A DNA stretch of 64,000 nucleotides from the human T2T-CHM13v2.0 reference genome, Homo sapiens. Of the stretch, positions 19,440-22,548 are shown one piece after another. Positions within the stretch are counted from its first letter, which is position 1. Every line of letters begins with the position of its first letter. The stretch covers positions 18,656,001-18,720,000 of the forward strand of contig CP068257.2 of the NCBI GenBank assembly GCA_009914755.4. The letters are read 5' to 3'. Position numbers and translations under genes: made by a program. The notes beneath the pieces are model-generated. The model saw nothing but the letters and a program-made list of their open reading frames with translations, ran no database searches and was not told the origin of the DNA.

Positions 19440-21057
19440 TAAGCCTCCAAAAAAAACAAATGTCAGGCGTTTCTCCAATGTTTCCTTCTAGTAGTTTTCT
19501 CCAAGTTTTACATTTAAGTCTTCAGTTTTGAACTGATTTTTGGGTATGGTGAATGAATGATGGAGTCTAGTTTCATTCTTCTGCGTATGTGTATAGCAGA
19601 CACACCTATCAGCAACAACTTAAGAATACCCTGAGAAAGGCCCTATGACCTAAGAAGAGCTCTGAATTAAGGACCCCAGGAATAGCCAACCTGGGGATAA
19701 TCGTTATTTATGAAGGACATCCAAAGCCCTGGCCCATTCCTTGGAATGCAGGCTGTACAGGGGATTGGGGCCCTTTGTTTTGAGTTCAATGGATTGCTAG
19801 GAGGAGGGTACTAAATAAAATTTGCTAAATAAACTGCATACTTTTTACAAAAAGTAGTGGTTCTCCTGTCAAGCCCGCCAGCACTGGACTGCTCCAAAAT
19901 GTAAATTTTCAATAAAACCTATGTCTCATTCCCTTGCTCTAGGTCTCTTCTTCAAATTCTCAGACTCAGTGCCATCCCTATTGGAGTCAATAGAGGTCCA
20001 GCACAACAATAACGATATCCAGGTTTCCCAGCACCATTTATTGAAGAGACTATCCATTTCCCAAGATGTTCTTGGTATGTTTGCTGAAAACAAATTGGGT
20101 ATAAATGTGTGAATTTATTTCTAGGTTCTCTATTTTCTTCCGTTAATCTACATGCCTTTTTTAATGAGAGTACCATGCTGTTTTCATTACTATTGCTTTG
20201 TCGTATATTTTGAAGTTAGATAGTGTGATGTCTCCAGCTTTGTAATTTTTGCTCAGGATTGCTTTGGCTATTCGAGGTCTTTTGTAGCTCCATATAAATA
20301 TTAGGATTTCTTTTTCTATTTCTGTGAAGAATGTCAATTTTTTGATAGAGTTTCCATTAAATCTGTAGATCATTTTGGGTAGTATGGACATTTTAACAAT
20401 ATTAATTCTTCCAATCAGTGAAAATGGACATCTTTCTCTTTTTTGTGTGTTTTCTTAAATTTCTTTCATCAGTATTTTACAGTTTTTCTTGTAGACATCT
20501 TTCGCTTCTTTGGTTAAATTGATTAGTAAGCATTTTATTTTTTGTACCTATTGAAATGGGATTGCTTTCTTGATTTCTTTATCAGATTGGTTGCTGTTGA
20601 CATACTAGTGATTTTTGCATGTTAATTTGGAATCCTGCAACTGTACTGAATTTGCTTATCATTTCTAACACTTTTTTGGTGAACTCTTTAGGATTTTCTG
20701 AATAGAATCTCATGTATTCTGCAAACAAGGGCAATTTGGCTTCTTGTTTAATTTGGATGTTCTTTTTTTTTTCTTTTGTCTAATTGCTCTGGCTACGATT
20801 TCCAATAACATATTGACTAAAAGTTGGTGAAGTGAACATCTTTGTCTTGTTCCAAATATTAGAGAAGAGGCTTTCATTTTTTTTCCCATTTTGTATGATG
20901 TCAGCTATAGGTTTGTCATAGATGGCCTGTATTGCTTTGAGGTATATTTCTTCTGTACCAGTTTGTTGAGAAGTTTTATGATAAAAAATGTTAAATTTTA
21001 TCAAATGCTTTTAAAATATCTATTGGAATAATTGTATGTTTTCTGTTTGGGCAAACT
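19440..21057 (-). mobile_element. LINE-1 ORF2 segment in antisense orientation. It is the inverted 5' arm of a twin-primed L1 and carries a ~430-bp foreign insertion at 19590-20015.
   Basis: Antisense L1 ORF2: ...CCCAGCACCATTTATTGAAGAGACTATCCATTTCCCAAGATG..., ...TACCATGCTGTTTTCATTACTATTGCTTTGTCGTATATTTTGAAGTTAGATAGTGTGATGTCTCCAGCTTTG..., ...AAATTTTATCAAATGCTTTTAAAATATCTATTGGAATAATTGTATGTTTTCTGTTTGG. The left end (19440-19590, ...CTAGTAGTTTTCTCCAAGTTTTACATTTAAGTCTTCAGTTTTGAACTGATTTTTGGGTATGGTG...) continues the L1 coordinate beyond the 430-bp insert. Confidence 0.8.
19590..20015. mobile_element. Unclassified ~430-bp insertion interrupting the antisense L1 arm
   Basis: The L1 antisense colinearity breaks between ...CTGGATATC (about 20018) and CACATACGCAGAAGAATG (about 19575). 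The intervening sequence (…GGACCCCAGGAATAGCCAACCTGGGGATAATCGTTATTTATGAAGGACATCCAAAGCCCTGGCCC…) is not L1-like. Confidence 0.35.
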
Positions 21058-22548
21058 TTTTTTGAGTGAGACCTCAAAAGCATAGGCAAAAGAGCAAAAT
21101 TTGACAAATGCTATTATATCAACCTAAAAAGCTTCTGTACAGCAATGGAAACAATAGAGTGAAGCAACTACCTACAGAGAGGGAGAAAATATTCTTAAGT
21201 TATTCATCTCTCAAGGGATTAATAAACAGAATAAATGACAGTCAAACAACTCAATAGCAATATAAATAAAAATAATCAAGTTTAAAATAAGCAAAATACT
21301 AGAATAGACATTTCTCAAAAGAAGACATACAAATGGCCAACAGGTATATGAAAATATGTTGAACATGGCTAATCATCAGGCAAATGCATATCACAACCAC
21401 AAGGAGATTTTTTTTTTTTTTTTTTTTTTTTTTTTTTTTTGAGACGGAATCTCGCTCTGTCGCCCAGGTCGGACTGCGGACTGCAGTGGCGCAATCTCGG
21501 CTCACTGCAAGCTCCGCTTCCCGGGTTCACGCCATTCTCCTGCCTCAGCCTCCCGAGTAGCTGGGACTACAGGCGCCCGCCACCGCGCCCGGCTAATTTT
21601 TTGTATTTTTAGTAGAGACGGGGTTTCACCTTGTTAGCCAGGATGGTCTCGATCTCCTGACCTCATGATCCACCCGCCTCGGCCTCCCAAAGTGCTGGGA
21701 TTACAGGCGTGAGCCACCGCGCCCGGCCCACAAGGAGATATTATCTCACCCCAGTTAAAAATGAATATTGTCAAATACACAGAAAATAACAGATGCCAAT
21801 AGGGATGCGGGAAAAAGAGGGAGAAAGGAATACTCATTGACTGTTGTTGGGAATGCAAATTAGTACAGCAACTATGAAAAACAGTAACAAGATTCTTCAA
21901 AAAACTAAAAATAGAATCGCCATACGATCCAGTAATTTCACTGCTGGATACATATTCAAAACAAAAGAAATTAGTATATTGAAGAGATATCTGCATTCTC
22001 ATGTTTACTGCAGCATTATTCACAATAATCAAGATATGGAATCAAATTTAATGTCCTTCAATGGATGAGTGGATAAAGAAAATATGGTATGTGTACACAC
22101 TGGGATATTATTCAACCATAAAAAGTGAAATTCTGTGATTTACAGCAACATGTATAGAATCGGAGGTCATGTTAAGTGAAATAAGCCAGGCTCAGAAAGA
22201 CAAACACGACATGCTTTTACTTATATTTAAAGCTAAAAAGTGGATCTCACAAAATTACTGAGTGAAATGGTGGTTACCAGAGACTGGGAAGAGAGTGTAG
22301 AGGGAGAAATGAGAAGAGGTTGGTTAATGAGTATAAAAATACAAGTAGATGGAATATGTTCTAGTGTTTGATAGTACAATAGGGTGACTATAGTTAACAA
22401 GAATGTACAGTATTTCAAAATAGCTAGAGGAGAAGATTAGCAATGTTCCAAACACAAAGAAATCATTTGAGGTGATGGATATTCTGCTTACCATAATATG
22501 ATCATTACATATCATTTGTGTACATAAAAATATTACCTATACCCCATT
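21058..22548 (+). mobile_element. LINE-1 (L1M/L1PB-like) ORF2 end plus 3' UTR in sense orientation. It is the sense arm of the same twin-primed element and hosts a nested AluYb8.
   Basis: GCAAAAGAGCAAAATTTGACAAATG...CTTCTGTACAGCAATGGAAACAATAGAGTGAAGCAACTACCTACAGAGAGGGAGAAAATATTC...CAAAAGAAGACATACAAATGGCCAACAGGTATATGAAAATATGTTGAACATGGCTAATCATCAGGCAAATGCATATCACAACCACAAGGAGAT[Alu]ATTATCTCACCCCAGTTAAAAATG...AATGGTGGTTACCAGAGACTGGGAAGAG...ACCATAATATGATCATTACATATCATTTGTGTACAT. ORFs 21634..22515 are L1/Alu derived. Confidence 0.8.
21409..21728 (-). mobile_element. Young AluYb8-lineage insertion (antisense) with a ~32-nt pure poly-T (that is, poly-A tail) and 10-11 bp TSD (c)ACAAGGAGAT
   Basis: Carries the Yb8 diagnostic 7-bp duplication (minus-strand text GGACTGCGGACTGCAGTGG, which is CCACTGCAGTCCGCAGTCC on the Alu sense strand) and CCACCGCGCCCGGC. 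Many CpGs are still intact. The poly-T runs from about 21409 to 21440. The TSD is ACAAGGAGAT at 21399-21408 and again at 21729-21738. Confidence 0.85.

What the first reader, a model, noticed from the sequence alone, without database searches (positions are those of the whole stretch)
19440..22548. Twin-priming signature, first case. The antisense L1 ORF2 arm abuts the sense L1 ORF2-end/3'UTR arm, and the breakpoint is contiguous in L1 coordinates.
On the plus strand, 19440-21057 reads as antisense L1 ORF2 and 21058-22548 as sense L1. In L1 coordinates the far-left end of the antisense arm (the reverse complement of the 19440-19480 region is ...GAAAACATTGGAGAAACGCCTGACATTTG, matching consensus ...GAAAACATAGGGGAAAAGCTTCATGACATTGG) lies immediately upstream of where the sense arm starts (GCAAACTTTTTTTGAGTGAGACCTCAAAAGCATAGGCAAAAGAGCAAAATTTGACAAATG, matching consensus GCAATGATTTCTTGGATATGACACCAAAAGCACAGGCAACAAAAGCAAAAATAGACAAGTG). 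The junction end of the antisense arm carries the most 5' L1 sequence. That is the topology expected from twin priming (an inverted 5' segment with a coordinate-contiguous 3' segment) and not from two independent insertions. The structure was later hit by an unidentified ~430-bp insertion (19590-20015) and by the AluYb8.
Basis: partly seen in the sequence, partly recalled or inferred. Interest (0 to 1): 0.5.

Follow-up and report, generated by a model that had tools for sequence, protein, structure and literature searches.

The report
Old L1 insertion with inverted 5' half
This is one ancient, decayed L1 retrotransposon copy whose 5' half was inserted backwards, the ordinary "twin priming" 5' inversion seen in about one in five L1 insertions, so it is real but unremarkable.

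Summary

- **Inverted arm:** 19458-21046, minus strand. It encodes L1 ORF2p from aa 591 at the inner junction to about aa 988 at the outer left end.
- **Direct arm:** starts at 21048 with about aa 991. It runs through the ORF2 end (22225) and the 3'UTR to an A-rich tail ending near 23001, not 22548.
- **Later insertions:** three, and removing each restores L1 colinearity. They are a ~426-bp LTR-like element (19590-20015), an AluYb-type element (21409-21728, 11-bp TSD) and a ~405-bp LTR-like element (22548-22952).
- **Contiguity:** rejoined in L1 order, the two arms align to contiguous L1 copies elsewhere in the window with a 0-3 bp gap at the junction.
- **Equal divergence:** identity is 68.1% for both arms against one reference copy, and 65.7% vs 65.6% against another.
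- **No independent 3' end:** the inverted arm has no L1 3' end or poly(T) of its own.
- **Target site:** the candidate TSD (AAAAAAAAC / AAAATAAAC) and the TTTT/G endonuclease site fit the model but are low-complexity and not statistically supported.
- **Host:** the unit appears nested in an older L1 ORF1.

Twin priming is a known mechanism, so novelty and interest are low.

The parts
19449..19457 (+). Candidate left target-site duplication, AAAAAAAAC. The bottom strand reads 5'-GTTTTTTTT/GG, an L1 endonuclease TTTT/G-type site.
   Evidence: Sequence read directly. It matches 23022-23030 at 8 of 9 positions, but it is low complexity and not significant. TTTT/G is listed as an EN site variant in PMC12016303.
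19458..19589 (-). Inverted arm, distal part: L1 ORF2 about aa 944-988. Its outer end is the internal priming point.
   Evidence: (domain 3). The left flank beyond 19457 is not L1 ORF2 (all p > 0.15).
19590..20015 (.). Later ~420-bp insertion with TG...CA ends and AATAAA signals (LTR-like, unclassified). It is not part of the L1.
   Evidence: Removing it restores L1 colinearity against three reference copies. No similar copy elsewhere in the window. No clear TSD.
20016..21046 (-). Inverted arm, proximal part: L1 ORF2 aa 591-943 (reverse transcriptase core and thumb). The most 5' L1 sequence lies at the inner junction.
   Evidence: (aa 591-608 at 21047-20994; aa 645-923 at 20886-20068).
21046..21048 (.). 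Inversion junction (...TTTTCTGT-T-TGGGCAAAC...). One or two bases cannot be assigned to either arm.
21048..21408 (+). Direct (poly(A)-primed) arm, part 1: ORF2 aa 991-1111.
21409..21739 (-). Young Alu (21409-21728) with a pure ~32-nt poly(T) and the tandem GCAGTCC duplication typical of the Yb lineage, plus the second copy of its 11-bp TSD CACAAGGAGAT (21398-21408 and 21729-21739). A later insertion.
   Evidence: Sequence read directly. L1 colinearity is restored on excision. The Yb assignment is from memory of the diagnostic duplication.
21740..22225 (+). Direct arm, part 2: ORF2 aa 1112-1272 (C-terminal domain).
   Evidence: (aa 1117-1272 at 21755-22225).
22226..22547 (+). Direct arm: ORF2 end and the first part of the 3'UTR.
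   Evidence: 72% identity over 229 bp to another L1 3' end at 25297-25521.
22548..22957 (-). Later ~405-bp LTR-like insertion (MaLR MST/THE1-like, from memory), plus the second copy of a 5-bp TSD (CCCAT at 22543-22547, TCCAT at 22953-22957).
   Evidence: Removing it restores 3'UTR colinearity with the copy at 25100-25560. Sequence read.
22958..23001 (+). Last part of the L1 3'UTR and a degenerate A-rich tail (AATAAAAAGTAAAGTAAATAAATATAA).
23022..23030 (+). Candidate right TSD copy, AAAATAAAC. The stretch 23002-23021 (TTTGTTTTGAAAAATAGAAG) between the tail and this copy is unexplained.

Best explanation
This is a single retrotransposition event of an old L1 that inserted by target-primed reverse transcription with twin priming.

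1. The L1 endonuclease nicked the bottom strand at a T-run (5'-TTTTTTTT/GG).
2. That end primed cDNA synthesis on the poly(A) tail. This produced the direct arm: 21048 to about 23001, covering ORF2 aa ~991 to the end, the 3'UTR and the tail.
3. After the top strand was cut, its 3' end (...AAAAAAAAC) annealed inside the same L1 RNA near ORF2 codon 988-990.
4. It primed a second cDNA towards the RNA 5' end. This produced the inverted arm: 19458-21046, from aa ~988 back to aa 591.
5. The two cDNAs were joined at 21046-21048.

The element has since decayed to about 45-50% amino-acid identity with human ORF2p, with many frameshifts. It later received two LTR-like insertions and a young Alu.

What is shown: the topology, the coordinate contiguity, the equal divergence of the arms and the absence of an independent 3' end. 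What is inferred from the established model: the priming steps themselves.
For: - **Topology and ORF2p coordinates:** inverted arm aa 591 (inner) to ~988 (outer); direct arm aa 991 to 1272.
- **Contiguity:** the rejoined arms align colinearly with a contiguous L1 copy. Nothing is missing or duplicated at the junction beyond 0-3 bp.
- **Equal divergence:** 68.1 +/- 1.4% vs 68.1 +/- 1.6% identity (K2P 0.428 vs 0.426) to the copy at 27283-29185, and 65.7% vs 65.6% to the copy at 50608-51359.
- **No independent 3' end:** the outer end of the inverted arm sits inside ORF2 with no 3'UTR or poly(T), and the flank beyond it is not L1 ORF2. It cannot be a normal independent TPRT product.
- **No host DNA between the arms**.
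- **One tail only:** a single A-rich tail lies at the right end.
- **Target site:** the flank adjoining the inverted arm has a TTTT/G-type EN site and a 9-nt candidate TSD.
- **Host continuity:** left and right flanks join into one colinear alignment to an old-L1 ORF1 probe. The joined score was reached by 21 of 1000 joins with a shuffled left flank and by 0 of 64 joins with other window segments. This suggests one insertion into one host site.
- **Literature:** 5' inversions occur in 18-22% of L1 insertions, and 46% of them have the two cDNA ends within 20 bp on the L1 reference (PMC12016303). The model is described in PMC2837659.
Against: - The TSD is short, A-rich and no better than shuffles.
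- About 20 nt (23002-23021, TTTGTTTTG...) between the tail and the best TSD copy are unexplained.
- Subfamily identity of the arms could not be checked against Dfam/Repbase consensus sequences. Only equal distance to two decayed in-window copies was shown.
- Sequence alone cannot distinguish twin priming from a later inversion whose breakpoints happen to coincide with the element's 5' end.
Confidence: 0.88

Rival explanations
1. An ordinary 5'-truncated L1 (aa 591 to tail) inserted in direct orientation. A later genomic inversion then flipped exactly its 5' 1.2 kb.
For: This would also give contiguous coordinates and equal divergence. Nothing in the sequence dates the inversion relative to the insertion.
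Against: One inversion breakpoint would have to fall exactly at the L1/flank boundary. The left flank next to the inverted arm is not inverted L1, and it appears colinear with the right flank's host L1, so no host DNA was inverted along with it. No inverted repeats that could mediate such an inversion were seen at the breakpoints. Twin priming gives this structure directly and is common.
Confidence: 0.05
2. Two independent L1 insertions of similar age lie head to head. The antisense one later lost its 3' part by deletion.
For: L1-rich regions often hold adjacent fragments. The window has several other L1 pieces.
Against: - The deletion endpoint and the 5' truncation point of the neighbour would have to coincide within 0-3 bp on a ~6 kb element, roughly 1 in 1000.
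- Divergence of the two arms is identical.
- There is no poly(T), 3'UTR or second TSD pair for the antisense arm.
- There is no host DNA between the arms.
Confidence: 0.03
3. This is a priming variant using two RNA molecules or a template switch. The inverted cDNA was copied from a second L1 RNA of the same family (as in dual priming), or a single RT switched templates, rather than both primers sharing one RNA.
For: The sequence cannot tell one RNA from two identical RNAs. Dual priming has been proposed for related structures (PMC2837659).
Against: Near-exact abutment of the two cDNAs on the L1 coordinate (0-3 bp) is expected if both copy one RNA and the first RT stops where the second began. 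With two RNAs there is no reason for the ends to meet. Dual priming as proposed starts at the poly(A) of the second RNA, which is not the case here: the outer end is inside ORF2.
Confidence: 0.04

Closest known systems
L1 5'-inverted insertions produced by twin priming (Ostertag and Kazazian 2001; surveyed in PMC12016303 and PMC2837659)
   Same: - An inverted 5' segment plus a direct 3' segment from one L1.
- The outer end of the inverted segment adjoins the start of the direct segment on the L1 map (0-3 bp gap here).
- A single 3' A-rich tail.
- A T-rich endonuclease site.
- Arm lengths of about 1.16 kb (inverted) and about 1.2 kb (direct, after removing later insertions) lie somewhat above the germline medians of 751 and 571 bp, which are reported with wide variability.
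   Different: Nothing in kind. This copy is ancient and decayed, so the TSD and microhomologies can no longer be demonstrated. It also carries three later insertions and lies inside an older L1.
Twin-priming variants with a 5' poly(T), and dual priming (Meyer et al. 2010, PMC2837659)
   Same: TPRT-derived L1 insertions with inverted architecture, flanked by TSDs.
   Different: Those loci have an inverted poly(A) (a 5' poly(T)) and a very short or absent non-inverted part. Here the inverted arm starts inside ORF2 and the non-inverted arm is long.

Membership tests
L1 (LINE-1) retrotransposon copy | Encodes ORF2p-homologous sequence (RT and C-terminal domains) followed by a 3'UTR and an A-rich tail. 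| tested here: met
   PDB phmmer E = 1e-63 to 1e-66 to human ORF2p for both arms. tblastn coordinates. 3'UTR similarity to another L1 3' end and the tail.
Twin-primed (5'-inverted) L1 insertion | Two segments of one L1 in opposite orientation: the inverted one is 5' on the L1 map, and the direct one carries the 3' end. | tested here: met
   Inverted arm aa 591-988, direct arm aa 991 to tail.
Twin-primed (5'-inverted) L1 insertion | The outer end of the inverted segment and the inner start of the direct segment are adjacent on the L1 map (small gap or overlap). | tested here: met
   0-3 bp gap against two contiguous reference copies. For comparison, 46% of such insertions fall within 20 bp.
Twin-primed (5'-inverted) L1 insertion | Both segments have the same age and source (equal divergence, same subfamily). 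| tested here: met
   68.1% vs 68.1% and 65.7% vs 65.6% identity to two references.
Twin-primed (5'-inverted) L1 insertion | One pair of target-site duplications flanks the whole unit, with none around either arm alone. | tested here: inconclusive
   Candidate AAAAAAAAC / AAAATAAAC at 8 of 9 positions, not above chance. No internal host DNA or second TSD pair was seen. Flank colinearity has p of about 0.02.
Twin-primed (5'-inverted) L1 insertion | L1 endonuclease-type cleavage site at the first-strand nick. | tested here: met
   The bottom strand reads 5'-GTTTTTTTT/GG at 19448/19449. TTTT/G is an accepted variant. This depends on the TSD assignment.
Twin-primed (5'-inverted) L1 insertion | Microhomology between the top-strand primer and the internal L1 RNA site, and at the cDNA-cDNA junction. 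| tested here: inconclusive
   Only 1-3 ambiguous bases at 19457-19459 and at 21047. Decay prevents a real test.
Twin-primed (5'-inverted) L1 insertion | The inversion arose during insertion, not afterwards. | not testable with these tools
   This needs orthologous loci or an empty site from other species.

The most novel reading that the evidence does not exclude
The structure did not arise by twin priming. Instead it came from a post-integration inversion or an RT template-switch event. Under this reading, the unexplained 20 nt between the tail and the TSD (23002-23021) would be filler or 3'-transduced sequence marking an atypical integration.
Probability: 0.06. Interest if true: 0.2.

Novelty: already known. 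Interest (0 to 1): 0.08.

Why it matters
It matters little beyond correct annotation. Repeat annotation would otherwise list two or more separate L1 fragments, when they are one insertion event. That affects counts of L1 insertions and age estimates in this region. It also shows that the sequence-only first-stage reading of L1 coordinates was accurate to within about 10 bp. The structure adds one more ancient example to a class that makes up about a fifth of L1 insertions.

Tried and rejected
- **The search for homologous proteins with a 184-aa piece of the inverted arm.** It returned only short L1-derived fragments (about 50-56% identity, up to 64% for partial matches). These were no use as a full-length reference or for subfamily assignment.
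- **Pfam scan of six-frame translations of both flanks.** No L1 ORF1 domains were found, because the host is too decayed. tblastn with human ORF1p gave only weak hits.
- **Does the inverted arm continue left of 19457 and overlap the direct arm by about 50 nt?** I suspected this by eye. Alignment to three references was no better than shuffles, so it is rejected.
- **Alternative TSD ACCTAAAGC / ACCTAATGC (19426 / 23029).** Found by local alignment but not significant.
- **The look-up of encoding contigs with an ORF from the arm, to locate orthologous loci.** Nothing is on record.
- **Ostertag and Kazazian 2001 (PMC311219).** The paper is not held. The model is cited through PMC12016303 and PMC2837659.
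- **In-window reference for the host ORF1 region.** Its hits were judged only by empirical shuffles.

Full report
**What is in the sequence.** The region is AT-rich primate-type DNA full of interspersed repeats. I translated the two arms in three frames, after removing the suspected later insertions, and searched the PDB sequences.
- Both arms hit human LINE-1 ORF2p with E-values of 1e-63 to 1e-66.
- I assembled an ORF2p aa 591-1275 reference from those printed alignments, with four short gaps filled from memory. Local tblastn with it gave these positions:
  - On the minus strand, aa 591-608 lie at 21047-20994, aa 645-923 at 20886-20068 and aa 916-943 at 20093-20010.
  - On the plus strand, aa 991-1025 lie at 21049-21153, aa 1028-1111 at 21156-21407 and aa 1117-1272 at 21755-22225.
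- The distal piece of the inverted arm (19458-19589) carries aa ~944-988 (domain 3).
- So the most 5' L1 sequence of the inverted arm sits at the inner junction.

**Contiguity at nucleotide level.** The window holds two L1 copies that run uninterrupted through this part of ORF2: 50608-51359 (plus strand) and 27283-29185 (minus strand).
- A local alignment of the inverted arm to the first copy ends at reference position 357.
- The alignment of the direct arm to the same copy starts at position 357.
- I rejoined the arms in L1 order: the reverse complement of 20016-21047, then the reverse complement of 19457-19589, then 21048 onward.
- The rejoined sequence aligns colinearly with the second copy, with no gap at the join...TGACATTTG|TGGGCAAAC... 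against ...ATATTAATC|TGGGCAAAG....
- In a four-sequence alignment the gap is 0 bp relative to one reference and 3 bp relative to the other.
- The inversion junction on the window is 21046-21048, with one or two bases that cannot be assigned.

**Same age.** Identity to the copy at 27283-29185 is 68.1 +/- 1.4% for the inverted arm (1003 aligned positions). It is 68.1 +/- 1.6% for the ORF2 part of the direct arm (821 positions). K2P distances are 0.428 and 0.426. Against the copy at 50608-51359 the values are 65.7% and 65.6%. Amino-acid identity to human ORF2p is also similar: 39-45% for the inverted arm and 46-50% for the direct arm. Each arm was later hit by an old LTR-like insertion. I could not name the subfamily, because no repeat consensus library is available. 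The 3'UTR looks like the L1MA/L1PB type from memory only.

**Later insertions.** Removing each of three segments restores L1 colinearity against the reference copies.
- 19590-20015 has TG...CA ends and AATAAA signals, with no clear TSD.
- 21409-21739 is an Alu in reverse orientation with a pure poly(T) of about 32 nt. It carries the tandem GCAGTCC duplication typical of the Yb lineage and an 11-bp TSD, CACAAGGAGAT.
- 22548-22957 is an LTR-like element, MaLR-like from memory, with a 5-bp TSD CCCAT/TCCAT.

The L1 does not end at 22548. It resumes at 22958 and ends in a degenerate A-rich tail near 23001.

**Ends of the unit.**
- The flank left of 19457 is not L1 ORF2. I tested whether the inverted arm continues and overlaps the direct arm, and alignments were no better than shuffles.
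- Next to the inverted arm lies AAAAAAAAC (19449-19457), preceded by CC. On the bottom strand this reads TTTTTTTT/GG, a TTTT/G-type endonuclease site (for the accepted variants).
- The best right-hand match is AAAATAAAC at 23022-23030, at 8 of 9 positions. Such A-rich 9-mers are common in the window (224 matches with at most 1 mismatch). The flank-to-flank alignment is not above shuffles. The TSD is therefore a candidate only.
- The 20 nt between the tail and this copy (23002-23021) remain unexplained.

**Host.**
- The right flank is an older sense-oriented L1.
- Weak ORF1p hits fall at 23173-23395. ORF2p aa 6-32 lie at 23871-23951.
- I removed an older Alu (about 19120-19405, TSD at 19081-19094 and 19406-19419) and joined the left flank to the right flank.
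- The alignment to the same probe then runs colinearly through the join. The joined score of 167.5 was reached by 21 of 1000 joins with a shuffled left flank and by 0 of 64 joins with other window segments.
- This suggests, at moderate strength, that the whole unit is one insertion into one site of an older L1.

**Interpretation.** The structure has the features of an L1 5' inversion made by twin priming.
- The poly(A)-primed cDNA gives the direct arm.
- A second cDNA, primed by the cut top strand at an internal site of the same RNA, gives the inverted arm.
- The two cDNAs meet where the second began (model as described in PMC2837659, and PMC12016303).
- Such inversions occur in 18-22% of L1 insertions. 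In 46% of them the two cDNA ends lie within 20 bp on the L1 map.

The rivals fare as follows.
- Two independent insertions are very unlikely. The inverted arm has no 3' end or poly(T), there is no host DNA between the arms, the coordinates meet within 3 bp, and the divergences are identical.
- A later inversion of exactly the 5' part cannot be excluded from sequence alone. It would need a breakpoint exactly at the element's end.
- A two-RNA variant gives no reason for the ends to meet.

**Verdict.** This is a known and common kind of structure, so interest is low.

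Noticed in passing
window 49880-51359: A second head-to-head L1 pair.
- An antisense L1 at about 50118-50600 covers ORF2p aa ~1112-1272. Its 3'UTR and a (TAAAA)n/poly(T) stretch extend left to about 49880.
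- It abuts a sense L1 at about 50601-51359 (aa ~869-1110).
- Read on the minus strand, this is again the twin-priming topology, with a gap of about 9-12 nt.
- The arms differ in identity to human ORF2p (72% vs 41-51%), so equal age is doubtful.
   Followed up: partly
window 18960-19457 and 23031-23951: The twin-primed unit appears nested in an older, sense-oriented, very decayed L1. The ORF1 3' half lies on both flanks, and the ORF2 start lies at 23871-23951.
   Followed up: partly
window 19120-19405: An older antisense Alu sits in the left flank. Its 14-bp TSD is AAAACTATACATTT / AAAACTAGAAATTT at 19081-19094 and 19406-19419.
   Followed up: no
window 8350-8741: A younger L1PA-like antisense fragment (81% aa identity to ORF2p aa 881-986). 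It jumps at about aa 986 to sequence resembling aa ~1085-1110. That is an internal deletion starting almost at the same L1 position as the inversion point studied here.
   Followed up: no
window 27283-29730: A contiguous old antisense L1 covering ORF2p aa 415-1272. It was used here as the reference copy.
   Followed up: partly
window 23002-23021: TTTGTTTTGAAAAATAGAAG lies between the L1 A-rich tail and the best TSD candidate. It is assigned neither to the L1 nor securely to the host.
   Followed up: partly
window 23240-23280: A short (TG)n/(TA)n microsatellite interrupts the host L1 ORF1.
   Followed up: no
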